Origin: Blasia pusilla
Taxonomy: Eukaryota
Direction of reading: 5' to 3'
Assembly (NCBI GenBank): GCA_050084515.1
Contig: CM114271.1
Location: 13,268,001-13,332,000, forward strand
Length of the DNA stretch: 64,000 bases
The notes beneath the pieces were generated by a model, which worked only from the letters and a program-made list of their open reading frames with translations, was not told the origin of the DNA and did no database searches. Made by a program: the position numbers and the translations under genes. Below, in pieces: positions 1,263 through 33,619 of this stretch (position 1 is the first letter of the stretch; each line of letters starts with the position of its first letter).

Positions 1263-1462
<200 letters not shown>

Positions 1463-3146: not shown

Positions 3147-4828
3147 TTATAATAAATATTTCCAAAAGGCATTAGTAAACTTTGGATCTCGATCAGACAC
3201 AATGCTCCTAGGCAATCCATGAGCTCGCCAAGAACTATCTAAGAACATTAGGGAAGTTGTATAGGCCATCATAGAATCTCTCATCGACACAAACCTCCCT
3301 AACTTGCTAAACCGGTCAACCATCACAAGTATAGCATTGTATCTCTCAGATTTTGGAAGACTCGTAATGAAATCCATGCTAATGCTTTGCAAGGGTCCCT
3401 CCGGGATCGGCAAGGGACAAAGTAACCCTTACTTCTTTGCATAAGAAACTTTGTTTGTCTGACAGGTCACGCAGGTCTTCACATATTGAGCAACATCCTC
3501 CTTCATGTTGGTCCAGAAGAACCTCTTCGCCAAAACAACAAAAATGGATTTCTCTCCTTTGTGTCATGCCAAAGGTCCATCATGGCATTCCACAAACACT
3601 TTGGTCAGTAGCTTGCCTTGGCCCACATAGATCCTGCTCTGCTTAAACCTTAGCAAACCATGCCTCAAACTTAGATTGGCCACCTTCTCGCCCCGCTTCA
3701 ACTTCCTTAGATACTCACTCGCTTGCGCATCCTTTATGCATCCTTCACGAATCCTTCTCTCCATATGTGTTTCGTTAGGGAACATTGCTCTCAAGACTTG
3801 TGTTGTCGATGGCATATGCTCATCCCTGCGACTTAACGCATCTGGAATGAATGTGGAGCTAATCCACAAGCCGAGGAAAGACAATGTCTTTCCCCGACTT
3901 GTGGATTAGATTCACATTCAGAAACACTAAGGTATCATGCCATCGAAGTTGCTTCGGTGTTACGCGATCTTGGGTCTCAAAATACTTGAGCGAAATATTA
4001 TGGGTGAATACTTGAGTCTTGTGAAGTCTCGAATAGTGACGCCACTTTATCAAACAATGAACCACCACGAACAACTATTTCTCATGAGTGGGCCATCTCC
4101 TTTCGGTGTCTTTAAGCTTCTTGCTCTCGTATGCTACAGGTCTCCCTTTTTGCACCAACATTCTGCAATCGTGAAATCACTAGCATCAGTGTGCACCTCT
4201 AGCACTTGGTCGAACTCAGCTTCATAATTGGTTCCTACGAGAGGATCTCTTTGATTTGGTTGAATGCCTTAACCACTTCCTCAGTCCATGTTGTGTTGGA
4301 AAACTTGGCGGTCCAATTTGTGAGAGGTTTCACTATTCCCAAAAAGTTCTTCACGTATGTCTAGTAAAACTAGACCGCTCAGATGAACCTCCTCATTCCC
4401 TTCCCACTGGAAGGCACTCCCCATTCGGAAATTTCGCTTACCTTCTCCGTGTCTAGAATCACTCCAAGTGCACTAACCACATGCTCGAAGAACTTGATCT
4501 TTGTCAAACCGAACTCACTCTTGTTCGCATTCGCATACAACTTGTTCGCCCTGAGTTTCTCAAACACCGTCTTCAAATTTCAAGCGTGCTCCTCTAGTAT
4601 TTTTGAATAGATGACTATGTCATATATGTAGATGATCACATTCTCATCCGTCACCTTATGAAAGATGGAGTTCATCAACGTGGTGAACGTTGCAGGCGAG
4701 TTACAAAGACCAAAAGGCATTACCACAAACTCGAACAAACCGTATCTTTTCCTTCACACAATCTTCTCCACATCCGCTTCTACAATCCGAATCTCATAAT
4801 ATCTTGATTTGAGGTCAATCCTACTGAA
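3147..4828 (-). pseudogene. Degenerate Ty3/Gypsy pol fragment (RT-RNase H-integrase) from a family distinct from the DNMT element
   Basis: RT: FSRIDLKSRYYEIRI...YGLFEFVVMPFGLCNSPATF, with YIYD in place of YIDD (~4620). RNase H: HTDASDF...WRHY...PDALSR. Integrase: SISMDFITSLPKS...VDRFSK...HGLPRSIVSDRDPKFT. Many stops and frameshifts. Confidence 0.9.
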
Positions 4829-5459
4829 TACTCCCCATGCAACATCTCCACTAGTCCTGCTCCAACCAAGTCCTGACTCCTACTCAGAATCAGAGCCCTC
4901 TCCATATCACTGTACCTATAGGGTTGTCAAAAGATCGGCGTATCACTCGACAACTCAATGCGGATCCCCAGTCCCTTCAGCGTACCCAAATCCTCCATGC
5001 TATACGCAAAGCAGCTCCTATAACTCCTGAGGAACTGATGTATTCGTCCCTGCTCTCCTTCTGTCAACTTAAGGCCCATATCTGGCTCCCAAGTCTCCAT
5101 CATGACTACGGTAGGACTCTCCGGCGCGGATATCGATGGTTGCTATGGTGCAACCCCGTCTCGAACAACAACACTCGACCGCTCTCCTGCAGCCAACTGC
5201 ACACTCTAATCTCCTCCATATGCAGTGTCCGGAACCACGCTCGATGCTATGGCTATCATCTCCTAGCGTACTTGCAAAACATCCCAAGAAGTCCAAGGGT
5301 GTCTCTCTCGATCTCCCCTGGTGTGTCAATCTCCTCGGATCTCGCCCCCAGCCACTGCCTCCACCGTCTCGATAGGCATGGGGCTCACCAACTCAACCGT
5401 TGTGATCTGTCGCGATCTCATTTGACGCTGCTCAGCCACTCCCAAGCTGAAGATCCATG

Positions 5460-6395
5460 TCAAGAAATTCAAGTCCATTGCGTGACCCAAGACATGGCGT
5501 TGTGATGCCTCTGATACTGACGGTACTGCCATCACTCCTGTGGGAAATCCCATCGCCCGCTCTCTCTTGTCAACGTTGGGCTCCACCAACCTCTAAACCT
5601 GGTCATCCCAAACCAAGCCAAGACCGGCCTCCTTGTATGCATAGGAAGCGGGAAAACTCACAAACGTGGGAAAGGCTCATCGCGGCTTGCTGACCACCGT
5701 TGATCACAGTCAACGGTGGTCGATCATCGTGCCTCACTGCTTGTGAGCGACGACCTCGATCCAGAATGGAATCCACTAACAAATGGGAGGGGCGCTCCAC
5801 TCTCGCATACGCCCTCCATAACAGCTCATGGGGCATCAAGTTGGTCCACCATAGACGCAAGCGATGGGCTCTAGAACCTACACTCGCCGTATCCAAGAAC
5901 AGTGCTGGGCCGATCCAGGCACGCACCTGATGAGCACTCGTCACCACCCGTGACTTGGAGTCTCCTAAGATGGGCACATTCTCTAGAATGTAGGTTGGAG
6001 AACGAGACTGGAGCTCCTTCAACTGCCGTAAGACCCTCAACATCTCCCAAAAAAACCTAGACCGAGTATCAGCGAACCCGCTGCCTCGTCTAGCACTCGA
6101 TTGGCCCTGACATGGCCAACCAAATATGACCAAATCAATGGTCCCTACCCGCTCTAAGTCCTGCGCCCCCAACAACAAAATATCCCTCGGTAGGGAACTT
6201 TGGTATCCCTGTATCGCAGACGCAGACAATAAGTCGGGGATACGTAAGCATAATTGTGCTATATGTCATAGTGAGACGCGCCTCACAGCATCATCACTCT
6301 CCACATACACGTATTGTTGTACTTGCACTCCTACCTGCAAAACAATAGCTAACCCGGTGCTAATCCCTCCAAAGAGATCTAACAATCGAATACCA
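5460..6395 (-). pseudogene. C5 cytosine DNA methyltransferase domain (DNMT3-like) in copy A
   Basis: Motif I IRLLDLFGGISTG; II YVYVESD; IV IDLVIFGWPCQG; VI YILENVP; VIII HRLRLWWTN; IX ERAMGFP; X RHVLGHAMD. Unpermuted order; one stop and a frameshift. Confidence 0.9.
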
Positions 6396-6799
6396 TCCTC
6401 CAGGGTAAACCACACAATGGGTGTGGTATCCAAGGGTGTTATCGTAGCACTCCCTGCTACCTCGGATTCCTTAGATCCGTCATGCTCCGGTGCAAACGCC
6501 TTGCTCCACGCGGTTTGCACGTGCTCATCTGCGAATCGTTGAAGCTCCTCAGTCGAGCCCCACAACGGCACCTCTCCTCCACGAAATGATACGGCGACCA
6601 TAACACTCCTCTCCATAGAAATATCAGGAAAGAGAGTATCCTCTGCATGGATATGTCCCTCAATCAAATCACTAGGCCAAGTTATGGCACTGCTAAATGC
6701 TACTAAGGTCGCCATCTCTCCTGGCCGTTGCTCGATCACTGCACATGTGAATCGAACAGGTAATGAGCTAAGGCGCCCATCACTTGACTGCCATCCTAG

Positions 6800-7150
6800 T
6801 CTGTAGGACGCTGACTCTTCCCAATAGTCCAGGGAAAACCCCATTGGGTATAACACTGCTCCACCAACCAAGACGTTGTAGGACTCTACATCAATCACCA
6901 TCGCCTTGGCTCGCACCACGGACTCATCTGTAGGATGTCCCGGGCAAATCCTCACCACAACCTCTTGTCGGGTGATATACTGTGTGCTACTCGCTCCACC
7001 CAAGGATGTCTGTATCTGGAATGGACAACGCTCCACATCGGCTCTCGTCAAGCCCAATCCTCTTAATGACGCTTTACCGAACATCAGGGGTTGCGCTTCT
7101 GAATCCAACAAGACGCGCTGCGGACTAAAAGCTCTACCTCTGGGACTCAC
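6800..7150 (-). pseudogene. Retropepsin-like aspartic protease of copy A
   Basis: RVLLDSEAQPLM (degenerate LLDSGA) ... YNVLVGGAVL inside ORF 6266-7243, in frame with the DNMT N-terminus. Confidence 0.75.
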
Positions 7151-7264
7151 CAACTGGAAGACCTCTCCTAGGTTATCCAGCAACACAACACCAAGAGAAG
7201 CCATGGCACGCTCTTTCACGGATCTAGCGGGCATCTCCGCCATCCTAGTAGCCGCAGCCTACCA

Positions 7265-9330
7265 TCAATCTGACGTGGACGGCCCGAGCATCTGCTCCAA
7301 GAGCAGGTCCATCATCTCCTTTGCAATCACCTTTGAACGTGATGTAAGAACTCCAAGTCCACACTCACATAGCGTAGCGGCCAGCCAAAAAGCCTCAGTG
7401 GGCGTACCCCCCAATGTCATAACATCGGAAGCAGAAAATAAAGGAGCACGGTACACAATGGTGGCCGCCCCCAACAACGTGCTTGACACATGCCCCTCTT
7501 GAGCATCAACAATATGAGTAGTCGCACTTGGTTCTCCCATCTCCCTCCGTGTCTACACACCAACAACGTCACCAACTCTCGAGGCACTCTGATCAGGACC
7601 CATCAATGGGGTCCTCATCGCCTCGGATAACGTGAAAGATTGAGGAAGCCTAGTCTATTTCCTGGCTTCCCCTCGCTGTGGATCCAACTCTGCGGCTGCT
7701 CCACGCGTCACTACTACGACTGCCTCCATGTGGGAAACCCTGCACATCCAACCAGGATCCTCCATATCTCTGGCTGCTCCATATGATGTCGATGCCACAG
7801 ATCCGGCGTTGGGTAATCTCAATGCCATTGCGGGTCATGCTCATGTAGCTGATGTATCTGAGTAGCCATCCTAGTCTCACACCCGGCATCTCCCTAGACG
7901 CGTCTAGGTGGTAGGACTCTACCTCCTCCACGGGAAGCTCCACCACCCTGTCGGGCAACTCCAGCTCCTCATTCCCCAACGAAACCACCTGGTGCACGAT
8001 CTCTAGCCCACCCGGACCGGCTACTCGCTCTGGTGCCCTCTCTGGCCCTCGGTCTGGACGTAACTCAGGATGTAAATTGAAACATCTGGTGTGTGTATGA
8101 CCATACCTCTGACAATAGTCACACTAATAACCTCCTGGTGCAGCACCATCTCCTCCTCCATGCTGAGGCACACGTCCATCACCCTGACGAGTGCAATCGC
8201 GCTGATTATGGGCTACACCACATGACCAACAAGTAATAGTAGGCGGCTTCTGCTGAGCCGCATATGAAGGCGCACGTCTCTATGTCACGGCCTCCCGGTA
8301 TCCTCAGTGAGCTTGTGGTGCCACAGTTGACCTATCTCGGAGTCCACGTTGTTGCACAGGTAGTGTAGACAATCGTGACTGCTCTCGCCCAGAAGCCATG
8401 GTGGCTACCCTCTCCTCCGCCATGTTACGCTCAATGTTCTCGGCGGTCCTGAAAACATCTCTCAACGTAGGGGAGGTGTTCATAAGAAGCACCCCTCCCG
8501 CACCCGTGTCCGCATGGTCCGGTCCAGCATAGCGTACCATGACTGGATAGCCTGAGCCTCTATCACCCCCTGAGTGACGTTGATCAACCAGCGAAAGCGA
8601 GTGTAAGCCTCACGCAAACTCTCACCCGGGCCCATCTGGAAGTTGTGGATGCTCCGCAACTTCTCCGTCCATACCCCTTGGTAGCTCGCCCTCAACTCAG
8701 CAAAGAACTCAACCACAGGGTTGAACCTCGAACAAACCCGACTAGATGGTGCAATTGCTCCCGTGTGAATGACCCCTCCTAAAACGTCACTAGTGGAAGA
8801 GGAAGTAGCCTCTCCTAACTCCTCCTCCTCATCTGGGAATGGCTCCGTCCATGACACATAATGTGGGTCATAGTAGAGCCTCCACGCCTCGATCTCACGT
8901 GCATATCTTTGAGAGAACTCATGGTAATCGTCTATGGGTGCCCCCTCTAAATGCTGGAACATACCGTTCCATGCTATAAACGGGTTGAACTCTCTAGAGT
9001 TCTGGCTCGCTGGGAGTCGCACCAACTCCTAAACTCTGCTATGAAAACGTGCAACTCAATCGTGCCTACTGCACCTGAAAACTTACGCGGTCCTCTACCC
9101 CGATCGTCCATCTCGTACGCCCAACTGGTAGGACCACTCACAATGTGTGGCAATGTGCTCACAAACTCCTCTACACGCTCCCCCTTGTCTGAAGATGACA
9201 CAAAAGGAGATCGAGGTGGTCTCTCACGTGGAAACCCTCGAAACCTCGCACCACTCCGGGTAAACCCTCCAGAGCTACTCTCAGGTCTACTACCTTGCCT
9301 CTCAAAATCTTGAAAGGACGCCGTGATGGC
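7265..9330 (-). pseudogene. Gag-like region of copy A with two zinc knuckles
   Basis: Frameshifted ORFs 8974-9201, 8480-9025 (FQMGPGESLREAYTRF, a Gag major-homology-like segment) and 8304-8540. CWSCGVAHNQRDC (~8195-8232) and CDYCQRYGHTHTRC (~8083-8124) read on the minus strand. Confidence 0.8.
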
Positions 9331-12300
9331 CCTCGTGCCCCTATCACACGATCACTCTCAACCTTGCGAGTAATCCTTCAATCACTCATCCCAAACATGC
9401 GGCACTCGATCTACACTCTCCCTCCCCGAGACGTGTAATGTGCGGCAACAAGCAGCGTGGTGCAGCAAATCGACCAGGCTATCATCTCATCAACAACCTA
9501 CCCTAAACTCCGGATATCCCACACAGGTCTATGTCCCCTAAACCACATACATAAATGATGCTCTCAGCATCCACACACCCAATATCCCTAGATAAACTAC
9601 CCAAATCCTAGAATCCCTCACACGTGCAGGGTAAAGGACCAGAATGGGTAACCTGAACACATGTCGATGTCGCTTTTCAGCAATTGCAAATCTCGACCCC
9701 AACTCGGTTGTGGAGACAACTCCTCCAATCAGCAAGTCATACTCCTCCCGTATTGACGCTGCTTAAAACTCCTTGATGGACACTTCGGTTCCAGGGGAAC
9801 GGTGCGGCGTTGCAGGCGGCACATAACGACTACGAACGGCACGGCCCTCGATGGTGAGATGCGGCACTCGGCGGCATACCCTCCTCAATCAACAATCAAC
9901 CCACACTCTACTCCACAATGACGGTGCTGCTCCGCGATCAAGATGGTGCGGTGCGGCCACAAGCAGCACGGCGCCGCAAATGGCGGCGCATTGCGGCTAC
10001 GGGCGTCACGGTACGGTACTCGATCGTCGTCGACCGGCTACCAATCACAACATAGCAGCATGAAATCAAAACTCAAACACCATAACCAAAGGTCATCTAC
10101 CATCACTGGTTGATGACAAAACTGCGATGACGGTGGCGGCCAAACCAAAGTAAGTGATGGTGACGCAAGTCAGAGAATCATCAGTGGTCGTGGAAGACCC
10201 TCCACTTCGAAATGGCAGCAATGGCAACCAAAGGATGAACAACAGCCGAATGCAACTCTCAGCAATGTTGGGCAATGGCAACGGCCAACGGTGGCCGGTG
10301 GACCATTGATGGTGACGGTTGACCAGAGACCAGAGACGGTGACTAGGACGGCGACGACTGCCGCCGTCGTGGCGGCTGGTTTAGGGTTTGAACAATGTAA
10401 CCCTAAAAATCACCTAGCAATGGTAGTTTTGCAAGATTGATCATAAATTTTTACTCGCAACTCCAAATTATGCACGTGCATAGCTTCACGATCTTCAACA
10501 ATTTCAAAAAATATTTGGAATTGGACATTTCAGTAAAAATTGACAGGGACTGTCGTAAAGCCCAATGTCTCTTTCTCCTACACAAATTTTGGCAGCGCTT
10601 CCGCGCTAATTTCTCCCAACTAAAATGTAAAACCTGTAAAAATATAAATCAGCAAGCTACATGGTGCTCCCGAGAGCACCGGCATGGGGCAACCCGCCCC
10701 CATGATCAATCCCTATCAGAAATTGGGCAGCGCTTCCGCGCGCCACTCTTCCACGCAAAAAATCAGAAAATGCAAAGAATAATCAAAGCAGCCCTTGCTC
10801 TAGTGAGCACTCCCATGAGCCGCTAAACGGGGAACAAGGTCCCCAACCTGCAAAAATAGCGAGTGACCAGCGAGCTCCCCCATGAAGCTCTCTCATTCTC
10901 TCATTCTCTCTTTGTAAAGTAAGATCCAATCTCCCTCTACACCATCTCACACCATAGCTCTCAAAGATGTGCACTCTCTCTCATGTCAAACCAAACCCAC
11001 TCTCCTAATGAGAGGCTCGGGTTACACTCAGAAGGCAAGGAACCATAGCTCCGCCGCCTCATGCCAAGAGGTTCAATAAAGAGAGAATGAGCTCTCAAGC
11101 TCTCTCTCCTTGAGGTTTACCCCTCCCCTCACCCAAGCTCTCTCCATGGTAACCTATTCTCCCAAGTCACCTCCTTGGCTCTTGACCTGATGTAGGAGGT
11201 CAACGAATACTTACCAAAAATAGAAAATATATATTCAAAATGGTACTTACCTAAAATAGGAAGTTCCTCAATATGGCTCCAAATGAGCCGAAACGAAGGG
11301 GAAACCTGCTCTCTCAGGTTTCCAAGGCCTGAGCAGGTCATCCTCAACCTACTGAGGATGCCTGTCCTCCACTAATCACGAAGGCGCTCTACTAGATCTC
11401 ACCGATCTATCCTAAAAGACGTGACACATGATAGTTGCTCAACGGGAGAAATAAATGCTTAACTAACCCCCCCGCACCTCCCAAACTAACCTCTCAACTA
11501 GTCCCCCTTAACTAATTTTGCTTAGTCAGGCTCCGGTCCTTCTCATGAACTCATGCGGTGTGTCGTGTCAGATTTTAGTCTTATTATCTAAGTGTACGTG
11601 CGATGCACGGATGTATAATTTTGAATTATCTATTCTAAGTGGAAAATTGAATTTAAACGATCCTATCGGCTTGGACAACTAACGATTCTATGGGCAAAAA
11701 AGAAAATATCATCACAAAATTTGGAGTTATGTCATTTTGATATCAATTACAAAATTATCTGTATTTGATGTATTTATGATGTCAATTGTGTACTAAAACT
11801 TTTTATAAAAAAAAATTATGCATAAAATTGACATGGAAAATTTATTGACATAAAAGATCAATATCAAAAAATTTATTTAATTAGTATCAAATAAATATGA
11901 AAATTAGCCATATCAGATTTCATGGTAAAATTATATTGAAGTTAGCACCCTCTAACTTTCGTGATGGTGTCTAAAGGAGAGGTGATCTCAAAATGAAGAG
12001 GCACTCTCTAATAATAATATAGATATTGAAACACAATGTAGTTGTGTGTAGGGTGTCATGTTTATTCTGCCATCACTCGCAAAGTTACATTGTTATATCA
12101 TGACATTATTGCTTACATTTGGGACTAATTGTTACATCATTAACTAATGATGGATACCCTTGAGGTTGCAAGAGAGGAAGGAAACTTTGAGGCAAAAAAT
12201 AGTGCAAATTTTGGCCATGAGCCATCCAGACATTTGAACCAACATCATTTTTCGACAGAGGATGTCAAAAACTTTGCTAGAAAAAATGACAGGGAGAATT

Positions 12301-16039: not shown

Positions 16040-19000
16040 TATAGTAGTTAGGTTTATAAGGATGTAGAGAACATCATTGATATATGATATTAAGACACAT
16101 AGACGTATGTTGAATATCCATAGTTACGGATATTCTAGGTTGATGAAAGGATAGACTAGACGATTGGCCACACCACGTTGCTTATTGCCGCACATCACAT
16201 GTCTTAGTCAAAGAGAGTGTAGATTTAGTACCGCATGTTTTAATTTTGGGTGATTGAGAGATTACTTACAAGGGTGAGAGTGATCGTTCAAGGGGGCACA
16301 AGGATCAACATGATGTCCTTTTAGGACTTTTAAAGGTGAGTACTTGAGAGTAATCTTGGAGGATTTATATGGATTGAGACGAGGTTTTGGGAGTCACAAC
16401 GTGAGGGAATGTCTTGACCTCAGAGAAAGGAGAGGTCTTAGAGAAGGATTTTGTAAGTGCATCATGACTCAAGTTGAGTGGTCCTACCACTTGGGCATAC
16501 GAGATGGATGACCGGGGTAGAAGACCGCATTGGTTTTCAGGAGCTATAAGTACCATAAAGTTGCATGACTTTATTGCAGAATTTATATTTAGGAGTTGGA
16601 GTGATTCACACAAGATTAGGATTTCCAGAGAGTTCAACTTTTTCACATTATGGAACGGTATGTTGTAGCACCTAGAGGAGGCATCCATGGTTGACTACCA
16701 TAATTTTTCCCATAGATTGAGGATTTGAGACTCTACTATGATCCACATTATGTATCATGGAATAAGCCATTTCCAGATGATAAGGAGAAGTTAGAGGAGG
16801 CTACTTCTCTGCCACTACCGAGAGTTAAGGAGGAATGATTCAAACTAGGGAAGTTGTATTGTCTAGTCAAGTTTGTCTTAGGTTCAACATCCATTAATCC
16901 CGTGGTTGAGTTTTTGGCGGAATTAAAAAGGAACTACTAGGAGATACAATCTGAGTGAGAAGTTACGGAGCATCCACAATTTCCACAGTTGCAAGGGGGG
17001 AGTTTGCGAGAAGCATTTACGCATTTACATTGATAGATTCGTATCACTTAAGGGATAATAGAAGCCCAAGTTGTTAAGACATGGTATGGGATGTTGGAAC
17101 GAGATCCATAGAAATGGGAAAGGGATGTGATACTCATGCATCGCATGTTACCTACATTGAGAAATATCTCTAAGATGGTTGAGCGTAACGCGGCCGAGGA
17201 GAGTGTTGCAACTATGAGTTACGCATGAGAGATGCCACGTGTGTTTGTACCACCAATGCAGCAATGTGTATCTTGAGAGAGAAGTATGGCATAGCGAGCT
17301 CATGGAGGTTATCGCGCAACAACATATGCCACAACAATCTATACCGTCATATGGAGGTCAACATTAGCTAGGAGATATTTGTTAGGCATTTGTAGAGCCC
17401 ATTGCTTGTAAGATTGCATATGATGGAGAAATGAACTTGTGCCCTAGCATGCAGGTGTAGATAGGCCCCCATCACTAATATTCAAGTGTGACTATTGTCA
17501 ACAGTATGGTGGTAAGTGTGCTAGACGTTTTTTCCTGTACCCTGAGCTATGTTTGGATTGACTGCCAGAGAGGATACGGGAGTGAGTTGGTGGTCCGTAT
17601 GGGACTAGATGTTGTGCACTAGATGGTCGCATAGGCGGAGAAGGAGTTGGATATACTCATGGGGGAGTTGGGTATGCTCACGGAGGAGGTAGAGATCCGC
17701 CACCTCAACGAGTCAAGGAGGATTCTAGGTGCAAGGCTAGGATGGCAGTTCAGATATAATAGTTACAACAACACATTGTCGTGATGGCATTGAGGTTACT
17801 TGATTATGGGCTAGTGGCATTGACCTCATATATGGAGTCCCCATAGACATGGAGGATCCTGGTTGGATATGTGGGGTTGCACACATGGTTTTTTTCCTTA
17901 CCCGTGAAGTAGCCGAAGAGTTAGATCCACAAGGAGGGAAAGCCAGGAAATAGACCAAGATTTCTCAATCATACATTTTGTTCGAGGCGATGAGGATTCC
18001 ATCAATGAGTCTCTTCCTCTTGAAACTCTTGATCGATGAGTCTCATCCTCTTGAAACTCTTGATCGATGAGTCTCATCCTCTTGAAACTCTTGATTAGAG
18101 TTTCAAGAGGATGGATGTTGTTGGTCTACATAAGTGATGGTTGATGGGAGAAGTGAGGAAGATGATTCCTCTTGCAGATGCTTAGATGGAGCCTATGTCG
18201 AGTATGTTGATGGGGACGGCCATTGTCATGTATCACATAGTCTATAAAGGTATTGGCTAGGTGCAAGAATATGAGAGATAGACAACCATGGACTTCTTAA
18301 AACGTTGCTCGAGCAAAGAGTGTGGAGGCAGCCACAACAACACATTTTCATTTTTTAGATGTGGAGCATGATGCGGGAGGTCAAAGTGGGGTGGCTAAAG
18401 TAGAGTGGCTAGGGTTGCTATATAGCAACCAAAGCTAGAGGTAGGGTCTTCTTCAATTGAGGTCACAATAGAAACTTGAGAGATTGTGATAGATCTTGAG
18501 TTAAGATGAGGAGAGAGACGACACATATATAGGTTCTAGAGACGGCATGTGAGGTGTTTAGGCTTTAGTATGAGAGACTAGGGTATGTTGAAGGATCTCG
18601 GGATATGGATAGTTTTGGCTAGTGATACACCAATCTTTTGTTGACCCCATATTAGATATTCCGACATGGAATGAGCCTTGATTTAGAATAGGAGCTAGGA
18701 CTTGTGGAGTTATTGCATGGGGAGCAAGCATCTATCATAATTATGTCATTAAAGAAGGATATATATGGCAATTGTATGGATAGGCGAATGTGTGGGGATA
18801 ACCATCATATCAATTGACACACGAGGTCACATCAATACGCCATGCCTACTCGTGAGGAGATATTTGTTATAGTTGGGCATGTAAAGATCTTCAATAATTT
18901 ACATCTCCATGTTGGCTATCATTAGCTTCCTATCAAGATGGAGGATAGGGAGAATATAATGTTTTTTGGAGGATAGATCAATTTGGAAGAGACATTTTGT

Positions 19001-20040
19001 ATCAGTGGCAGTTTTTTACTTTTTTGCTGAAAATGCCCCTGCGGAGTTCCAAAGAGATGGATAGGAATAAAACTAGCTTGGATTTTGTACGGTATTACAA
19101 AGATTCTATTCTTATCTTGAATTCCATGATTAGGGAGCATAAGCAACACTTGGAGGAGTTATTTAAGCGATTTCAATTACATGGACTAAAGTTACATCCA
19201 AACAAGTGTAGGTTCTTCCAAGAGCGGATCAAGTACTTGGGATATACAATATATCAATATGGATTAGGTGTTCACAAGACAAAGATGGAGGCTATTGTGT
19301 CAATTCCACGCCCTACAAATATGAGTTGAGTCCAACCATTTCTAAGATAGGAAAACTTCTATTAATGGTATGTCAAGGGTTTTAGTGCGATCGCAAAGTC
19401 TTTGATCTTGTTGATAAGACTTGATCAAGTTTGGCATTGGAGAGATGATAAGGAGCAAGAATTTTATGAGCTCCAATGATAAGTCAAAATCTGATCTTTT
19501 TTACATAAACACATTTAATTTTGAAGGATTGTCCAATTCAATTACACACATATTGGAGCATGTTGGGTCTAGAAAGAGTACTCACTTAGAGAGATGAAGA
19601 GGAGAGGGAGTTTGTTGTGGCTCATGTTAGCTAATCAAAAAAATTGTAGAGGCAAAGTATAACTTCTATGAGGGAGACTACTTGGTTGTAATGTGGGTGG
19701 TAGCATATTTTAGGTGTTGTCTATTCGATAACCCTTTCACACTTATCTCTAATTATAAATGGTGGAGGGTGGTTGATCGAGTTTGAAAAGCTTACATAAA
19801 TGTTTGTTAGGTTCTCTTACTAGTACTTGAGTATGACTCTATTAGTTTAAGGTGGTGCATAGGCTAGGTCGGTTGAACCAAGATGTAGATGGATGGAGTT
19901 GCAATCCATGCTTGAGTTAGAGAGACAACATAATATAAGCTTTATAGCATGGAGAGAGTGATGGGAAGATGGTACTCGGTTGGCATGCATCTACCTTTCT
20001 TTACTAATTGATTATATTAGGTCAAAAATAGGTGGTACCT
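16040..20040 (+). mobile_element. Highly degenerate DNMT-Gypsy family copy B (gag, RT, RNase H; protease and DNMT missing)
   Basis: SGPTTWAYEMDDRGRRP (16474) matches the gag of A and C. LHGLKLHPNKCRFFQERIKYLG (ORF 18997-19329) is RT. The sequence jumps from late gag (~18240) to the post-DNMT region. Confidence 0.85.
18001..18113. repeat. 31-bp tandem triplication followed by an inverted arm
   Basis: ATCGATGAGTCTCATCCTCTTGAAACTCTTG x3 (first unit with 2 mismatches), then AGAGTTTCAAGAGGATG, the reverse complement of CATCCTCTTGAAACTCT. Confidence 0.95.
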
Positions 20041-24265: not shown

Positions 24266-26519
24266 TTAAAAGGAAGTGATTACCTAAAACATCCATTCGT
24301 GATCCCTGTCGTTATAGAATGGAGAGTGTAGGTTGTGATCTTATATTGAGTAGGAAACGATTCCTTATATACAAATTTGTCACGTCTTTTAGGATAGATT
24401 GGTGAGATCTAGTAAAGCGCTTTCACTAGTAGTGAAGGACAGACTTAGGAGGTTGAGGATGACCTACCGAGGCCTTGGGAAACTTGAGAGAGCAAGTTTC
24501 CCCTTCGTTTCGGCTCATTTGGAGCCATATTGAGAAGCTTACTATTTTAGGTAAGTACCATTTTGAGTATATGATCGACTTTATATTTTTTGTAAATGGC
24601 CTTGACCTCCTACATCAGGTCAAGAGCCAAGGAGGTGACTTGGGAGCATAGGTTACCATGGAGAGAGCCTGGGAGAGGGGAGGGGTATACCTAAAGGAGG
24701 GAGTTTGAGAGCTCATTCTCTCTTTGTTGAACCTCTTGGCATGAGGCTGCGGAGCTATGGTCTTGCTTGCCTTATGTGTGTAACCAAAGCCTCTCATTAG
24801 GAGAGTGGGTTTGGTTTGACATTGAGAGAGACATGTGAAAGTGGACACATTTGAGAGCTATGGTGTTGAGAGAGATTGGATCTAGATTTACAAAGAGAGA
24901 ATGAGATGAGTGAGAGAGCTTCATGGGGGAGCTCGCTAGGCGCTCGCTGGTTTTTCCAATTGGGGATCGTATTCCCCGTTCAGCAATTCATGGGAGTGCT
25001 CACCGGAGCCAAAGCCGCTCATTTTTTATGTTTCCTTTGTTGATTTTTCGTGTAGAAGAGTGGCGCGCGGAAGCGCTGCCTAATTTTTAATAGGGATTGA
25101 GTATGGGGACAAATTTTGCCATGCCGGTGCTCTCGGAAGCACCATGTAGCTTGTTGATTTGTGTTTTCACAGGTTTTACATTTTTTTTGGGAGAAATCAG
25201 CGCGGAAGCGTTGTCAAATTTTGTGTAGGAGAACGAGACATTGGGCTTTACAACAGTCCCCGGTAGTTTTTACTGGAATCTCCGATTCAAAATATTTTTT
25301 GACGTTGTCGTATATCATGAAGCTATACATGCTATTCATCAAATGGTGCACAATTTAGAGTTGCGAGCAAAAATTTATGATCAATCTTGCAAAACTGCCA
25401 TTGCTAGGCGATTTTTAGGGTAAAATTGTTCAAATCCTAAATCAGCCGCCGCACCGGCGGCGGCCATTGCCGTCATAATCACCATCAATGTTCAACCATC
25501 ACCATCGATGGTCAATTTTTATCGTCAATGGTCCACCCGCACCATCAACAGTCAACCGTCACCGTCGACGGTCAATTGTTATAGTCAATGGTCCATCGTC
25601 ACCATCAACGGTCCACCGTCAACGGTCCATCTTCGCCGTCCACCGTTGACCTTCGACCATCGACCGCCGCTATTACCTACAGCCGCTTAGAGCCGCGTTC
25701 GGCCGTTGTCCGCCGTTGGTTGCCATTGCCACCATTACGGAGTGGATGGTCTTCCACGACGACCATTGATTCTCCGACTTGCGCCGCTACCACGTACTTT
25801 GGTGTGGCCGCCATTGACATCATAGTTTCATCATCAACGAGAGATGGCAAGTGACCTCGGGCTATGGTGTTTGAGTTTTAATTTCATTTTTCTATGTTGT
25901 GATTGGTAGCCACTCGACGACGATTGAGTACCGTGCCGTGACGCCCGTAGTCGCAACGTGCCGCCGATTGGCGCGCCATGTCACTCATGGCTGCACCACA
26001 CCATCTTGATCGCGGAGCCGCTCCTTCAATGAGAAGAAGAGCATGTGTATTGCTGATTGAGGAGGGTATGCCATGGAGTGCCGCATCCCATTATCGAGTG
26101 CCGTGCCATTCTGTAGCCGTTCCGTGCCGCTAGTGTCGAACCGGATCCGCACTGCATATTGAGGAGGTTTGAGCAGTGTCACTACGAGAGGAGTACGACT
26201 TGTTGATTGGAGAAGTTGTCTTCACGACCAAGTTGGGGTCAAGATTTGCACTTGCCGAGGAGCGACATCGACATTATTGTGAGGTTACCCATTTTGGTCT
26301 CTTACCCTGCATGTGTGAGAGATAGACCTGTGTGGGATGTCCATAGTTGAGGATGGTTTTTTCGATGAGACTATAGATCAGTTGATTTTCCGCACCATGC
26401 CGCTTGTAGCCGCAATGCACACATCTTGGTGAGAGAGTGTAGCTTGAGTGCCACATGTTAGATTGAGTGATTGCGTGATTACTTGTGAGGTTGAGAGTGA
26501 TCGTGTGAGGGGGGCACAA

Positions 26520-28500
26520 GGGTCATCACGGTGTCTTTTCAAGACTTTGAGAGGCAAGGTGATGGATTGGAGAGTAGCTCTAGAGGATTTACGCGGAGTG
26601 GCATGAGGTTTTGAGGGTCTCCACGTGCGGGGCCACCCTGACCTCCTTGTGTGTCATCTTTAGACAAGGAGGAGGGCGTGGAGGAGTTGAGTAGTGCTTT
26701 GCCACTCATATTGAGTAGTCCTACTACTTGGGCGTACGAGATGGACGATCGGGGTAGAGGACAGCGTAGGTGCAGTAGGCACGATAGAGTTGCACCACTT
26801 CATCACGGAGTTTAGGAGTTTGTGTGACTTGCACCAAGCTAGGAACTCTAGATAGTTCAACCCGTTTACAGCATGGAATGGTATGTTCCAGCATTTAGAG
26901 GGGGCGCCTATGGATGATTACCATGAGTTCTCCACAGATATGCCCAAGAGATTGAGGCATGATGACTCTACTATGACCCACACTATGTGTCATGGACGGA
27001 GCCGTTCCCATATGAAGGGGAGGAGTCAGGAGAGGCTACTTCCTCTTCCATCAATGATGTTTTAGGAGGGATAACTTGCACTATAGCAGTTGCACCATCC
27101 AAGCGGGTTCGTCCCATGTTCGACCCCATGGTTGAGTTCTTTGTTGAGTTCAGGGCGAGCTACCAGGGGGTATGGACGGAGAAGTTGCGGAGCATGCACG
27201 ACTCCTAGAGGCATGCTATCCACTCATGGTACGCGATGTTGGACCGGACCCTGCCGACACGGGTGCAGGAGGGGGTACTTCTTATGAACACCTCACCTAC
27301 ATTGAGTGATGTTTCTAGGACCGTCGAGAACATTGAGCACAACATGATGGAGGAGAGCGTAGCCACCATGGGTTCTGGGCGAGAGCAGTCACGATTGCTT
27401 GCATCACCAGTGTAGCAACGTGGACTCCAAGATAGGTTGACTGTGGCACCACGAGCTTAGGGAGGATACCGGAAGGCCATGCCATAGAGACCTACGCCTT
27501 CATATGCGGCTCAGCAGCACCCGCCTACGATTACTTGTTGGTCATGTAGTGGAGCCCATCATCAACGCGATTGCACTCTTCAGGATCATGGACGTGTGCC
27601 TTAGCATGGAGAGGAGATGGTGCTGCACCATGAGGTTATCAGTATGACTATTATCAGAGGTATGGTCACACACGCGCCAGGTGTTTCAGTTTATACCCTG
27701 AGTTACGTCTAGACCAAGGGCTAGAGAGGGCACCAGAGCAAGTAGCTGGTCCGGGTGGGCCTAGAGCTCACCCACCAAGTGGTCTCGTTGGGGGACGAGG
27801 AGCTGGAGTTGCCCGACAGGGTGGTGGAGTTGCCCATGGAGGAGGTAGAGTCCCACCACCTAGATGTGTCAAGGGAGACGCCGGACGTGAGGCTGGGATG
27901 GCTGCTCAGATACAGTAGCTACAAGAGTAGATTGCCGTTATGGCATTGAGATTACTTGATGTCGGATCCATGGCATCAACATCATATGGAGCAGCCAAAG
28001 ATATGGAGGATCCTGGTTGGATGTGCGGGGTTGCCCAGATGGAGGCCGCCGCACATGTGACGCGTGGAGTAGTTGCAGAGTTGGATCCACGACGAGGGGA
28101 AGCCAAGAAACAGACCATGCTTACTCAGTCTTTCACTTTGTCCAAGGCAATGAGGACCCTATCGATGGGTCTTGATTAGAGTTCCCAGAGAGTTGGTGAT
28201 GTTATTGGTGTGCAGACACGGAGGGAAATGGGAGAAACAAGTGCGACGACTCCTATTGCTGATGCTCACGAGGAGCATGTGTCGAGTATGATGTTGGGGG
28301 CATGATGGTGTACCGTACTCTGCTATTTTTTGCTTCCGATGTTATTTCATTGGGAGGTACGCCCTCTGAGGTGTTCTAGCTGGTCGCTACGCTATGTGAG
28401 TGTGGAGTTGGAGTTCTTACATCACGTTCAAAGATGATTGCAGAGGACGTGATGGACCTGCCCTTGGAGGAGATGCTCGGGCTGTCCACGTCAGATTCAT
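26520..28500 (+). pseudogene. Gag-like region of copy C
   Basis: ORF fragments 26883-27208 and 27755-28179 align with the gag of copy A; degenerate Zn knuckles at ~27535 and ~27645. Confidence 0.8.
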
Positions 28501-28971
28501 GGTAGGCTACGGTTGCTAGGATGGCAGAGATGCCCGTTAGACCCACGATAGAGCGTGCTATGGCTTCTCCTAGTATTTTGTTGTTGGATAACCAGGGAGA
28601 GGTCTTCTAGTTGGTGAGTCGCGGAGGTAGAGCTTTTAGTCCGCAGCGCGTCTTGTTGGATTTAGCAGCATTTAGTAGTGCCTTGACTTGGCCTAGTGAT
28701 TTGATTGAGGGACATGTCCATATAGAGGATACTTCTGTTCTTGACATTTCTATGGAGAGGAGTGTCATGTAGTCGCATCAATCCGTGGAGGAGTGGTATC
28801 GCTTTGGAGCTCGACTGAGGAGCTTTGACGCTTAGCCACTAAGCATGTGCAGACCGCGTGGAGCGAGACGTTTGCACCAGAGTGTGATGGGTCAGAGGAA
28901 CCCCAGGTAGGCAAGAATGCTACTATGACCCCTTTGGATACCTCCACGATTGTGTGGTGCATCCCAAAGCA

Positions 28972-29920
28972 GGGTATTCGGGTGTTGGATCTCTTTGGAG
29001 AGATCAACACTAGGCTAGTTGTTGTTTTGCATGCTGGAGTGCGCGTGCATAAGTACCAGTATGTGGAAATTGATGATGTTGCAAGGCGCGCTTCACTTCA
29101 CCATGTGGCATAGTAACGCCTCCGTTTTCCCAACTTGTTGTCTGCATCCGCTATTCAAGGTTACCAGAGTTCCCTACGAGGGACATTTCATTGTTGGGGG
29201 CACAGGCCTTGAGCAGGTAGGGACCATCCACTTTGCCATTGCTGGTTGGCCATGTTAGGGCCAGACGAGTGCTGGACGGGGTAGCGGATTAGCTGACTCT
29301 CAATCCATGTTGTTTTGGGAGATTATGCGGATCTTGCGACACTTGTAGGAGCATCAATGTCGTCCTCCAGCATACATTCTGGAGAATGTGCCAATTTCGG
29401 CCAATTCGAGGTCCCGTATGGTGATGAGTGCACATCAAGTGCGAACATGGATCGGCCCGACAGTTTTGTTGGATGTGGCGAGTGTGGGTTCAGGACCACA
29501 TCGCCGGCGTCTTTGGTGGACCAACTTGGTGCCACATGAGGTATTACGAAGGGCTTATGCGAGAGTGGAGCGTCCATCCGATTTGTTGGTGGATTCTATA
29601 TTGGATCCGGGCTGTCGATCATGGCCAGTGAGGCATGATGTTCGACCGCCATTGACTGTGGTTAACATGATTGGCATGCTACAAGCAGCCTTTCCCACAT
29701 TGGGTGAGTTTTCCTGCTTCCTATGCATTCAAGGAGGTCGGACGTGGCTTGGTTTGGGATGACCAGGTAAAGAGGTTGGTGGAGCCCAGCGCTGATGAGC
29801 AAGAGCAAGCGATGGGATTCCCCATAGGAGTGGCGGTAGTACCGTCACTATCAAAGGCATCACGATGTTATGTCTTGGGTTAGGCGATGGATCCGAACTG
29901 CTTGACATGGATTTTCAACT
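28972..29920 (+). pseudogene. C5 cytosine DNA methyltransferase domain (DNMT3-like) in copy C
   Basis: GIRVLDLFGEINT (I), YVEIDD (II), IAGWPC*G (IV), YILENVP (VI), PHRRRLWWTN (VIII), EQEQAMGFP (IX), RCYVLG*AMD (X). Confidence 0.9.
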
Positions 29921-30399
29921 TAGGAGTAGCTGAGCTGCGTCATTTGAGGATGCAACAAATCACAGTAGTTGCGTTGGTGAGCCCCATGCCTACTGAGACG
30001 GTTGAGGCAGTGGTTGAGGGCGAGACCCGAGGAGATTGACACACCAGGGGTGATCGGGAGAGAAACCCTTGGACTTCTTGCGATGTTTTGCAAGTATGCC
30101 ACGTGATGGTAGCCACAACATCAAGCGTGGTTTTGGGTACTGCACATGGAGATCAGATTTTGCAGTTGGCTACATGAGAGAAGTCAAGTTCCGTTGTTCG
30201 AGACAAGGTTGCATCATAGCAACCACCTACACCCACACCGGAGAGTGCTACCGTAGTCACGATGAAGACTTGGGAGCCAAATATGGGCCCTAAGATGACA
30301 CGAGGAGAGCGGCGTCGGATACATCAATTCCTGAGGAGTTATAGGAGATGTTTTGCATTTAGCATATAGGATTTGGGTACGATGCAGGGTCCAGGGATC

Positions 30400-31680: not shown

Positions 31681-32069
31681 CATGCTCAAGTTAGCGAGAT
31701 GCGACTGGAGCTCGTTGGCATGATGAGAGTGATGAGGAGTTGGTGCCAAGATGGCACGCGTCAGCCTATTTGGGCTTGTTGGCTATGGACAGCCAGACTG
31801 CTGAGACTTTGATGGCGAGGTTTGATGGAGAGTCCTTAGATCCAAAGGCCAATGAGGAGACGACAGGTGGCCGAGACATTCATGACGATGCAATGGTCTT
31901 GGAGTACGTGCGTACTGGCAGCGCCGCGAGCACAATGGATGGTAGAGAGCGGGATCGGATCCTACAGCAAGCTAGACAGTTCCGATGGGAGGGGACACAT
32001 GTGTTGCGAGTGTGGGAGGATGGTAGAGTGCGTGTAGTGCCTCATCCTTCGCAAAGAGCAGGTTTGGTG

Positions 32070-33167: not shown

Positions 33168-33302
33168 TGTATGTTGTGTGGTTCTGCTCGTGGTGCAGCC
33201 ACTATGCAAGTCTGTGATGGATGTTCGAGAGGATGGCATATGGCATGCTTGACGCCACCTCTCACTAGGGTTCCTCAAGGACGATGGATATGTCCCAAAT
33301 GT
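33168..33302 (+). other. PHD finger (C4HC3) at the integrase C-terminus of copy C
   Basis: CMLCGSARGAATMQVCDGCSRGWHMACLTPPLTRVPQGRWICPKC. Confidence 0.92.
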
Positions 33303-33617: not shown

Positions 33618-33619
33618 GT

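What the first reader, a model, noticed from the sequence alone, without database searches (positions are those of the whole stretch)
5460..7243. Ty3/Gypsy retrotransposon family encoding its own DNMT3-like cytosine methyltransferase between protease and RT
Seen: three copies (A 5460-6395, C 28972-29920, D 62360-63300) carry C5-MTase motifs I, IV (GWPCQG), VI (ENV), VIII (RxRLWWTN), IX (ERAMGFP) and X (RRHVLGQAM) at the same position. In A, motif I is in one ORF with the protease, so the domain belongs to the polyprotein and is not a one-off captured gene. Known: unpermuted motif order and the IX/X wording resemble animal-type and basal-plant DNMT3 rather than the circularly permuted DRM. DNMT-bearing retrotransposons have been reported in dinoflagellates and charophyte algae. 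Inference: this is a multi-subfamily DNMT-Gypsy lineage in what looks like a land-plant genome. The enzyme could methylate the element's cDNA or insertion site. The copies here are all inactivated.
Basis: partly seen in the sequence, partly recalled or inferred. Interest (0 to 1): 0.92.

Follow-up and report, generated by a model that had tools for sequence, protein, structure and literature searches.

The report
Retrotransposon carrying its own DNA methyltransferase
Decayed copies of a plant jumping gene that carries its own DNA-methylating enzyme; the kind was known from one green alga, and here it turns up, abundant and transcribed, in a genome whose copies group with those of liverworts and peat mosses.

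Summary
Three degenerate copies of one Ty3/Gypsy family (A 4828-11426 -, C 24378-34175 +, D 59024-64000 -) carry a C5-cytosine methyltransferase domain between protease and RT. It matches PF00145, and its nearest solved structures by sequence and by fold are DNMT3A/B/C. Motif order is unpermuted. Lesions in A and C are private to each copy. A-C dN/dS on the domain is 0.35.

It is not a new kind. A Klebsormidium nitens protein has the same DNMT-RT-RNaseH-integrase order. Copy C has the odd A-coding-B-A-B repeats that de Mendoza et al. 2018 describe for KnitGypsy-Dnmt3. In a DNMT tree the window groups with Marchantia, Calypogeia and Sphagnum proteins, on the same side as Klebsormidium and Closterium.

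What is new is the range. The lineage reaches land plants, and seven literature searches found no report of that. In this genome, read depth on the element is hundreds of times that of its flanks, and sense-strand RNA covers it.

Enzyme activity and its purpose are inferred, not shown. Verdict: new member of a known kind, of moderate interest.

The parts
24378..24890 (+). Copy C, repeat A1 (the 5' LTR-like repeat)
   Evidence: blastn 24496-24890 vs 33651-34043, 91.9%. Sequence read. Read joints place the start at 24378.
26769..28167 (+). Copy C, gag region, degenerate
   Evidence: tblastn to Marchantia P0203 residues 16-488.
28308..28745 (+). Copy C, protease remnant. It carries a deletion relative to copy A.
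   Evidence: tblastn to P0203 residues 524-801. A 6706-7095 has no counterpart in C.
28940..30093 (+). Copy C, DNMT3-like C5-MTase domain (5 stops, 2 frame changes)
   Evidence: PF00145 E 1.3e-5. tblastn to P0203 residues 819-1245. Projection on the reference. The 1-base frameshift at 29702 is absent from 568 of 964 DNA reads.
30395..31072 (+). Copy C, reverse transcriptase
   Evidence: PF00078 E 8e-23.
31239..31616 (+). Copy C, RNase H
   Evidence: PF17917 E 1.3e-30.
32046..32546 (+). Copy C, integrase (H2C2 zinc domain plus DDE core)
   Evidence: PF17921 E 1.4e-14 and PF00665 E 7.8e-9.
33168..33302 (+). Copy C, PHD finger at the C-terminus of the integrase
   Evidence: PF00628 E 1.1e-8. Same position in relatives P0006, P0013 and P0019.
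33489..33618 (+). Copy C, repeat B1
   Evidence: Aligns to 34044-34175 with few mismatches over about 130 bases. Read joints.
33619..34043 (+). Copy C, repeat A2
34044..34175 (+). Copy C, repeat B2, the 3' end of the element
   Evidence: After the end of B, 1953 DNA reads run on into unlike sequence (consensus agreement 0.33).
10913..11426 (-). Copy A, repeat A1
   Evidence: blastn A 10338-11429 vs C 25483-24375, 83.6%. Sequence read.
7650..9028 (-). Copy A, gag with a CCHC zinc knuckle
   Evidence: ORFs 8480-9028 and 7650-8123. Weak PF03732 match, E 0.0094. tblastn to P0203.
6431..7258 (-). Copy A, protease-like segment. It is in the same ORF as DNMT motif I. The active-site motif reads DSE where relative P0238 has DTG.
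5326..6430 (-). Copy A, DNMT3-like domain, motifs I to X (2 stops, 1 frame change)
   Evidence: PF00145 E 3.2e-10. PDB phmmer: DNMT3A 4.1e-11..
4828..5142 (-). Copy A, start of RT. The copy ends at about 4828, where it is joined to an unrelated low-GC Gypsy element.
62202..63420 (-). Copy D, DNMT3-like domain (3 stops, 9 frame changes)
   Evidence: tblastn to P0203, P0206 and P0200..
59024..62094 (-). Copy D, RT, RNase H and integrase. The copy runs off the window at 64000.
   Evidence: blastn C 30266-33258 vs 62069-59068, 72%. tblastn.
16525..19929 (+). Copy B, a related copy with gag and RT/RNase H. The stretch that should hold protease and DNMT is missing.
   Evidence: tblastn: P0203 residues 11-354 at 16525-17549, then P0206 residues 707-1127 at 18510-19929.
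57543..58759 (+). Isolated integrase fragment of the same family
   Evidence: blastn to C 31959-33183, 84%. tblastn to P0006.

Best explanation
SHOWN. The window holds old, broken copies of a Ty3/Gypsy-type retrotransposon family. Its polyprotein reads gag - protease - DNMT3-like C5 cytosine methyltransferase - RT - RNase H - DDE integrase - PHD finger. The element is bounded by split direct repeats (A ... B-A-B).

It belongs to the same lineage as KnitGypsy-Dnmt3 of the charophyte Klebsormidium nitens. That lineage also occurs in Closterium, Marchantia, Calypogeia and Sphagnum. The methyltransferase domain has evolved under purifying selection as part of the element. In the source genome the family is very abundant and transcribed.

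INFERRED. In intact family members the domain is an active de novo DNA methyltransferase made from the polyprotein. It would travel with RT and integrase and methylate the element's own new double-stranded cDNA or fresh insertion. I put this cis action at about 0.45, against other uses of an active enzyme. The PHD finger on the integrase probably reads a histone-tail state to steer integration.

The confidence given (0.8) is for the SHOWN part, that is, what the element is and which lineage it belongs to.
For: Domain identity:
- PF00145 scores above its cut-off in copies A and C.
- Single-sequence PDB search: DNMT3A 4.1e-11, DRM 1.9e-4, HhaI 6e-3.
- Family-profile PDB search: DNMT3A 2.5e-20, DRM 2.9e-14, DNMT2 1.2e-7.
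- An AlphaFold model of relative P0158 (58% identical to copy A) has pLDDT 93.5. All 31 Foldseek matches printed (ranks 1-49) are DNMT3A/B/C; the best has E 6.6e-18 and TM 0.84.

Architecture:
- One search gives the domain order of copy C.
- Protease and motif I share one ORF in copy A.

Lineage:
- K. nitens KFL_009030040 has DNMT at 312-369, RVT at 770-930, then RNase H and integrase.
- Copy C shows A-coding-B-A-B repeats, supported by read joints and loose ends. This matches the figure legends of de Mendoza 2018.
- In the careful tree of 39 rows, a branch with 98/96 support separates the 16 RH-DNMT-IN rows from a side holding the window, K. nitens, Closterium, Mesostigma and the bryophytes. 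The window lies in a 100/99 clade of 10 rows with Marchantia, Calypogeia and Sphagnum.

Selection:
- A-C dN/dS is 0.35 (bootstrap 0.26-0.45) over 362 codons. For comparison, gag is 0.49 and RT 0.24.
- A-C differences at codon positions 1, 2, 3 are 79, 68, 125.
- The lesions in A and C lie at different sites.

Genome level:
- DNA depth is 1290-2010 on the DNMT bins, 1270-2200 on gag/PR, 2640-3440 on RT-IN, and 0-9 on three of the four flank bins (about 90 on the fourth).
- Sense-strand RNA depth on the DNMT bins is 22-72 in 3 of 3 RNA runs.

Catalytic motifs (PC, ENV, RxR) are intact in copy A and in Marchantia P0203.
Against: - No enzyme activity is shown for this clade. In de Mendoza 2018 the KnitGypsy-Dnmt3 domain gave no detectable methylation in yeast, which the authors call inconclusive (passages read).
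- All window copies are dead, so nothing here acts.
- dN/dS rests on codons mapped by tblastn to a protein guide, which favours amino-acid matches. The A/C-D comparisons are saturated (dS 1.5-2.6).
- I could not place the domain in a tree with host DNMT3, DRM, CMT and DNMT1 references, because none could be fetched.
- The RNA reads may be read-through or heterochromatic transcripts. They do not show that intact elements are expressed.
- Copy number is uncalibrated.
- No target-site duplication or tRNA primer-binding site was recognised at copy C.
- The host taxon is inferred from the tree only.
Confidence: 0.8

Rival explanations
1. The domain is an active DNA methyltransferase, but it acts in trans. 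It would methylate host chromatin or competing elements, for example to build heterochromatin around landing sites or to disturb host regulation, rather than methylate its own cDNA.
For: Same evidence for an active enzyme as the main reading. The family's depth is hundreds of times that of its flanks and it is transcribed, so any expressed enzyme could reach the genome at large. De Mendoza 2018 raises accidental activity on the host genome (discussion passage).
Against: The domain lies inside the polyprotein between protease and RT, so it is made together with the particle proteins. By the paper, K. nitens shows no unusual methylome. Nothing in the window tests where the enzyme acts.
Confidence: 0.2
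2. The domain has lost catalysis and serves as a structural, DNA-binding or chromatin-docking module, in the manner of DNMT3L.
For: KnitGypsy-Dnmt3 gave no methylation in yeast.
Against: - The motif IV cysteine, motif VI ENV and motif VIII RxR are kept in copy A and in Marchantia P0203.
- In the alignment of 53 proteins, C140, Q141, E183, R223, R225 and N230 are at least 90% conserved.
- Purifying selection extends over the whole domain.
Confidence: 0.12
3. The domain methylates RNA, as DNMT2 does. Its target would be the element's genomic RNA or a primer tRNA.
For: DNMT2 chains appear in the profile search at E 1.2e-7 to 2e-7.
Against: DNMT3A scores thirteen orders of magnitude better (2.5e-20). 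All 31 Foldseek matches printed (ranks 1-49) are DNMT3 chains.
Confidence: 0.04
4. The domain is not part of the element. Instead it is a host DNMT3 gene fragment hit by insertions, a single capture event, or an assembly chimera.
For: None found. One related copy (B) lacks the domain.
Against: - Three copies in the window carry the domain at the same place.
- It shares an ORF with the protease.
- Raw reads cover the DNMT bins at the same depth as gag/PR.
- Annotated proteins of Marchantia, Calypogeia and Sphagnum contain the domain, and tblastn/blastp domain typing places PR or gag-PR before it in many of the proteins held; the K. nitens protein has it before RT, RNase H and integrase.
- Copy B lacks the protease as well, so it is an internal deletion.
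Confidence: 0.02

Closest known systems
KnitGypsy-Dnmt3 of Klebsormidium nitens (de Mendoza et al. 2018, Nat Commun 9:1341; section 9 and passages read; supplements closed)
   Same: - Gypsy-type Pol with a DDE integrase.
- An unpermuted DNMT3-like domain inside Pol, upstream of RT. A K. nitens protein shows DNMT-RVT-RNaseH-IN.
- A-coding-B-A-B repeats (against the paper's legends).
- Same side of the 98/96 branch in the DNMT tree.
- Purifying selection on the domain.
   Different: - The host is on the land-plant side: the window groups with liverwort and Sphagnum proteins, not with K. nitens.
- The paper speaks of fewer copies in K. nitens and of an acquisition in that lineage. Here read depth is hundreds of times that of the flanks.
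- A PHD finger follows the integrase in copy C. Pfam found none in the partial K. nitens protein.
- That KFL_009030040 is one of the paper's copies is my inference; the paper's text names no gene.
Unnamed chlorophyte and metagenome Gypsy elements with the order RT-RNaseH-DNMT-integrase-PHD, e.g. 'pol [Scenedesmus sp. PABB004]', and proteins of Haematococcus lacustris and Chromochloris
   Same: Homologous RT, RNase H, integrase and PHD finger (27-46% identity to the window by tblastn), and a homologous DNMT domain (26-35%).
   Different: The DNMT sits between RNase H and integrase, not between protease and RT. In the DNMT tree all 16 such rows form one side of a 98/96 branch. In the larger quick tree, 69 of 69 such rows lie on one side. 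Whether this reflects one acquisition followed by a move, or two acquisitions, is open.
SymbioDIRS-Dnmt3 of Symbiodinium (same paper)
   Same: A DNMT3-like domain in Pol and A-coding-B-A-B repeats. Two tested copies methylate CG de novo in yeast.
   Different: SymbioDIRS-Dnmt3 is a DIRS element with a tyrosine recombinase. The window element has a DDE integrase (PF00665, PF17921) and no PF00589 match in copy C.
Cellular DNMT3 (animal DNMT3A/B/C; plant DNMT3 as in Yaari et al. 2019, passages read)
   Same: Best sequence and fold matches. Motif order I to X.
   Different: There are no PWWP or ADD domains, and the domain is embedded in a retroelement polyprotein. The element's only reader-type domain is a PHD finger on the integrase.
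Plant DRM methyltransferases
   Same: Second-best solved relatives (E 2.9e-14).
   Different: DRM aligns only to profile positions 34-166, and these fall at the C-terminal end of the DRM chain (residues 228-354 of 357). That is consistent with a different motif order in DRM; its circular permutation is recalled, not tested here. In the window the motifs run I to X in order.

Membership tests
C5 cytosine DNA methyltransferase, DNMT3 class | Pfam PF00145 match above the gathering score | tested here: met
   Copy A: 40.4 bits against a cut-off of 22. Copy C: 25.3 bits. Copy A read through: 35.4 bits.
C5 cytosine DNA methyltransferase, DNMT3 class | Motifs I, IV, VI, VIII, IX, X in unpermuted order, with the catalytic PC, ENV and RxR residues | tested here: met
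   All are present in order in copy A and in Marchantia P0203. They are partly destroyed in C and D. The motif names are recalled. The residue correspondences with DNMT3A come from the alignment.
C5 cytosine DNA methyltransferase, DNMT3 class | Nearest solved relatives are DNMT3 enzymes, by sequence and by fold | tested here: met
   The fold was modelled on relative P0158, not on the broken window copy.
C5 cytosine DNA methyltransferase, DNMT3 class | Groups with eukaryotic DNMT3 in a tree that includes DNMT1, CMT, DRM, DNMT2, DNMT5 and DNMT6 | not tested
   No reference sequences of those families could be fetched with the searches left. The paper places the K. nitens element DNMTs in a divergent Dnmt3-related clade.
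C5 cytosine DNA methyltransferase, DNMT3 class | SAM-dependent methylation of DNA | not testable with these tools
   This needs an enzyme assay.
KnitGypsy-Dnmt3 lineage | Gypsy-type Pol (RT, RNase H, DDE integrase) with the DNMT inside the Pol reading frame, upstream of RT | tested here: met
   Copy C domain order. The K. nitens protein has the same order.
KnitGypsy-Dnmt3 lineage | Repeats arranged A - coding - B - A - B | tested here: met
   Copy C: A1 24378-24890, B1 33489-33618, A2 33619-34043, B2 34044-34175. A-to-B and B-to-A joints, and 1953 loose ends after B, appear in DNA reads. Only one copy in the window has its 3' end.
KnitGypsy-Dnmt3 lineage | The DNMT domain groups with that of the K. 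nitens element | tested here: met
   Same side of a 98/96 branch. They are not sisters, and the order within that side is unresolved.
Canonical Ty3/Gypsy LTR retrotransposon | Two plain LTRs, a target-site duplication, and a tRNA primer-binding site | tested here: inconclusive
   A1 and A2 are 91.9% alike, but an extra B repeat follows A2. I recognised no duplication at the flanks and no primer-binding site after A1 (by eye only).
DIRS/Ngaro-type retrotransposon | A tyrosine recombinase in place of a DDE integrase | tested here: not met
   PF00665 and PF17921 are found, and no PF00589 match, in three frames of copy C.
Plant DRM | Circularly permuted motif order (VI-X before I-V) | tested here: not met
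   Motifs run I to X. Motif I is in the ORF upstream of motif IV.

The most novel reading that the evidence does not exclude
The DNMT3-bearing Gypsy lineage is an ancient element found across streptophytes. It crossed from algae into land plants and still replicates there, using split-repeat ends together with a DDE integrase. In large bryophyte-type genomes its enzyme, made from on the order of a thousand or more transcribed copies, would contribute measurably to de novo methylation of the host genome. That would make part of a plant methylome transposon-made. Because Marchantia carries the family, this is testable in a tractable model.
Probability: 0.15. Interest if true: 0.85.

Novelty: new member of a known kind. 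Interest (0 to 1): 0.55.

Why it matters
Retrotransposons that carry their own cytosine methyltransferase invert the usual picture, in which methylation is the host's weapon against them.

Until now the Gypsy-DNMT3 case rested on one charophyte alga with few copies, and its enzyme gave no activity when tested. This window and its relatives add three points:
- The same lineage exists in land plants (liverworts, Sphagnum, and this genome) and in Closterium.
- It can reach very high copy number and is transcribed.
- A sister form in green algae carries the domain at another place in Pol.

This moves the question of what a transposon-encoded DNMT3 does into organisms with genetics and methylome tools, Marchantia polymorpha above all. 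It also warns that DNMT3-like hits in bryophyte gene sets may be transposon genes.

Tried and rejected
- Whole genome: none is held for this window, so intact copies could not be sought. Family-level statements rest on reads instead.
- Earlier notes of this scan for this genome: none.
- Run index: no RNA holder listed. RNA evidence comes only from the three raw-read runs that were laid.
- Protein atlas: the DNMT query returned only generic PF00145 clusters. The 507-aa LRR ORF gave LRR clusters of mixed taxa. Neither helped with the host or the function.
- Pfam found no protease in the window copies. The protease was shown by alignment to a relative instead.
- A full DNMT family tree with host DNMT3, DRM, CMT and DNMT1 was not built, for lack of reference sequences.
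- A/C-D dN/dS values are reported but discounted, because dS is saturated.
- Target-site duplication and primer-binding site were looked for by eye at copy C and not recognised.
- Copy number was not calibrated, because the stretch laid contains no clear single-copy stretch.
- Literature. Seven searches for a land-plant report found only de Mendoza 2018 and later papers citing it for 'streptophytes'. One search on PHD fingers in Gypsy integrases found nothing relevant in its listing. Supplements are closed and Repbase was not available, so a prior listing there cannot be excluded.
- Considered and rejected: host-gene fragment, single capture or assembly chimera; DRM; DIRS membership.
Full report
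**What is in the window.**
A self-comparison of the window, ORF lists and Pfam scans of three-frame read-throughs with X at stops show one retroelement family present several times.
- Copy C (24378-34175, + strand) is full length.
- Copy A (4828-11426, - strand) matches C from its 5' repeat to the start of RT at 80-86% DNA identity. It then stops at about 4828, where an unrelated low-GC Gypsy RT continues.
- Copy D (59024-64000, - strand) matches C from the DNMT region onwards at about 72% and runs off the window.
- Copy B (16525-19929, + strand) has gag and RT/RNase H, but the stretch that should hold protease and DNMT is missing.
- An isolated integrase piece lies at 57543-58759.

**Domain order.**
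In copy C, Pfam gives DNA_methylase PF00145 (core at about 29226-29408), then RVT_1, RNase H, integrase zinc domain, integrase core and a PHD finger. Upstream lie gag and a protease remnant, found by tblastn with Marchantia proteins.

**The methyltransferase.**
- The ORF 5603-6265(-) of copy A matches PF00145 at E 3.2e-10.
- Against all PDB chains, copy A's domain hits DNMT3A at 4.1e-11, DNMT3B at 2.3e-8, a DRM at 1.9e-4 and M.HhaI at 6e-3.
- A profile of 13 family members gives DNMT3A 2.5e-20, DNMT3C 4.2e-19, DNMT3B 1.2e-18, DRM 2.9e-14 and DNMT2 1.2e-7.
- An AlphaFold model of an intact close relative (P0158, 58% identical to copy A; alignment of 53 proteins) has mean pLDDT 93.5. Foldseek ranks only DNMT3A/B/C chains among the 31 matches printed (ranks 1-49); the best has E 6.6e-18 and TM 0.84 on the target.
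- The motifs run I to X in order. Copy A keeps the residues that align with DNMT3A's catalytic positions. C and D have lost several.

**Part of the polyprotein.**
In copy A a single ORF (6266-7258, - strand) runs from a protease-like segment into motif I, and one in-frame stop separates it from the ORF with motifs IV-VIII. That ORF aligns at E 2e-45 to a metagenome protein across the latter's Pfam aspartyl-protease match and on into its DNMT. In relatives the domain lies in one predicted protein with its neighbours: gag-PR-DNMT in P0002 and DNMT-RT-RNaseH-integrase in P0039 and in the K. nitens protein.

**The lesions are private, and the domain was under selection.**
- A DNA alignment of the three DNMT regions shows that the frameshifts and stops of A and C lie at different sites.
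- The 1-base frameshift of C at 29702 is absent from 568 of 964 genomic reads.
- Codons were mapped through a protein guide, without mending anything. A-C dN/dS on the DNMT is 0.35 (bootstrap 0.26-0.45, 362 codons). For comparison, gag is 0.49, protease 0.57 (70 codons) and RT 0.24 (82 codons).
- A-D and C-D give 0.24-0.46, but with saturated dS.
- A-C differences at codon positions 1, 2 and 3 are 79, 68 and 125.
- The guide-based mapping favours amino-acid matches, so these values are approximate. They are far from 1, even though both copies have also decayed neutrally since insertion.

**Genome-level view from raw reads.**
One DNA run (about 1 in 100 of it was read) and three RNA runs of the same species label were laid on 23500-35000 at 80% likeness. 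All depths below are the two orientation columns added.
- DNA depth is about 2700 on repeat A, 1270-2200 on gag/protease, 1290-2010 on the four DNMT bins and 2640-3440 on RT to PHD. On the flanks it is 0 on two bins, about 9 on one and about 90 on one.
- The DNMT region is therefore as common as gag/protease. The 3' half is covered about 1.5 to 2 times more. That could reflect better conservation or 5'-truncated copies.
- Of 175,323 DNA reads laid, 137,384 are under 90% alike to copy C, so the family is large and diverse. The copy number is not calibrated.
- In all three RNA runs, reads lie mainly with the first mate on the - strand. In most stranded libraries this means sense RNA for this + strand copy. 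Depth on the DNMT bins is 22-72.
- This shows transcription of family members. It does not show that intact elements exist.

**Unusual ends.**
- Copy C has repeat A at 24378-24890 and again at 33619-34043 (91.9% alike over 396 bases).
- A second repeat B lies both just before A2 (33489-33618) and just after it (34044-34175). The two B copies differ at few positions over about 130 bases.
- No B lies upstream of A1 in copy C or copy A.
- Reads show A-to-B and B-to-A joints. They also show 1953 reads that leave the end of B into unlike sequence, so B is the 3' terminus across the family.
- This is the A-coding-B-A-B layout. De Mendoza et al. 2018 give it for DIRS elements and say KnitGypsy-Dnmt3 shares it despite its Gypsy domains (legends read).
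- I recognised no target-site duplication or primer-binding site.

**Relatives.**
- The domain finds 2061 proteins at E<=1e-3 among 1.84 billion representatives.
- Named relatives at 47-64% identity are hypothetical proteins of Marchantia polymorpha (a dozen or more; one 90% cluster holds 18 sequences), Calypogeia fissa and Sphagnum.
- More distant ones come from Closterium, Mesostigma and Klebsormidium nitens.
- The K. nitens protein KFL_009030040 has DNMT, then RVT, RNase H and integrase. Marchantia MARPO_0091s0058 has DNMT before RVT. This is the window's order.
- A second set has the order RT-RNaseH-DNMT-integrase-PHD, and in one case a Tudor domain as well. It includes 'pol' of Scenedesmus, proteins of Haematococcus and Chromochloris, and many metagenome proteins. 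Its RT, RNase H, integrase and PHD are homologous to the window's.

**Trees.**
- Quick DNMT tree of 141 rows. Only rows with at least 230 aligned residues were kept, out of 219 proteins then held. All 69 RH-DNMT-IN rows lie on one side, and 29 of 30 PR-DNMT-RT rows lie on the other.
- Careful tree of 39 chosen rows. The 16 RH-DNMT-IN rows are one side of a 98/96 branch. The other side holds K. nitens, Closterium, Mesostigma, metagenome forms, and a 100/99 clade of 10 rows made of the window copy, Marchantia, Calypogeia, Sphagnum and two metagenome proteins.
- The trees are unrooted and contain no host DNMT3.

**What it is.**
It is a member of the KnitGypsy-Dnmt3 lineage, here in a genome whose copies group with bryophyte ones. 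The paper presented that element as an acquisition in the K. nitens lineage. A 2025 paper and a 2026 preprint still cite only 'streptophytes' for it. Seven searches found no report from land plants. Supplements and Repbase could not be seen.

**How it most likely works.**
- Shown: the domain is encoded inside the polyprotein, keeps DNMT3-type catalytic residues, and was conserved by selection.
- Inferred: it is an active de novo DNA methyltransferase, present with RT and integrase where the cDNA is made and inserted.
- I consider methylation of the element's own cDNA or new insertion the most likely use (about 0.45), as the 2018 paper proposed. Action on host chromatin comes next (about 0.2). 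A non-catalytic role (about 0.12) and RNA methylation (about 0.04) are less likely.
- The PHD finger on the integrase stands where chromoviruses carry a chromodomain, so a role in steering integration by histone marks is a reasonable inference. It is untested.
- Against any activity claim: the K. nitens domain gave no methylation in yeast, which the authors regard as inconclusive.

**Side observation on decay.**
Where most reads differ from copy C, the changes are mainly A>G (282) and T>C (261) among 923 listed places in the DNA run. That is, copy C carries T or A where the family has C or G. Between A and C, C/T mismatches affect 16.2% of CG cytosines, 18.2% of CHG and 7.1% of CHH, while transversions stay at 5-6.5% in all three contexts. 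This fits deamination of CG- and CHG-methylated cytosines, as expected for silenced plant transposons. It does not tell who laid the methylation down.

**Verdict.**
It is a new member of a known kind. Interest is moderate. The kind is published, but three things are worth a specialist's attention: its reach into land plants, its abundance and transcription here, and the two placements of the domain within one Gypsy backbone. They also make the function testable in Marchantia.

Noticed in passing
window 4820-4830: Copy A's RT stops, and an unrelated low-GC Gypsy element's RT continues from Pfam RVT_1 position 70. The two elements appear to be joined near equivalent points of RT. This could be recombination or template switching between families, a deletion between nested elements, or an assembly join.
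   Followed up: partly
window 16525-19929: A related copy (B) has gag and RT/RNase H, with only about 960 bases between them. Both protease and DNMT are missing, so it looks like an internally deleted derivative.
   Followed up: partly
window 24375-30526 vs 4828-11429: Between copies A and C, C/T mismatches affect 16% of CG and 18% of CHG cytosines but only 7% of CHH cytosines, while transversions are flat. Copy C carries T/A where most family reads have C/G. This is the signature of CG and CHG methylation decay.
   Followed up: partly
window 30380-31437: A joint that skips 1056 bases inside RT/RNase H is seen in all three RNA runs (11, 18 and 8 reads) and in 0 reads of the DNA run. The ends are GA..CA, not a canonical intron. 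It may be a transcribed deleted copy that the 1-in-100 DNA sample missed.
   Followed up: no
window 24762-33919 and 24883-34044: DNA reads join repeat A1 directly to A2/B2, skipping the whole interior (62+64 and 81+97 reads). This is as expected for solo repeats left by recombination.
   Followed up: no
window 50145-51668 (-): An open frame of 508 codons between stops encodes leucine-rich repeats of the ribonuclease-inhibitor type. It is the only long non-transposon ORF seen and is possibly a host gene.
   Followed up: partly
window 1265-1458: A long (GA)n microsatellite.
   Followed up: no
window 35809-37075 and 53346-54277: Two copies of another repeat, 84% alike, of unknown kind.
   Followed up: no
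proteins P0006, P0013, P0017, P0019: Green-algal and metagenome Gypsy elements carry the homologous DNMT between RNase H and integrase. One of them also has a PTM/DIR17-like Tudor domain after the PHD finger. Seven literature searches aimed at Gypsy-DNMT3 and land plants turned up no description of this arrangement; none was aimed at it specifically.
   Followed up: partly
protein P0203 cluster: The Marchantia polymorpha gag-PR-DNMT protein Mp_4g09160 stands for 18 sequences at 90% identity. This suggests fairly recent amplification in that model liverwort.
   Followed up: no
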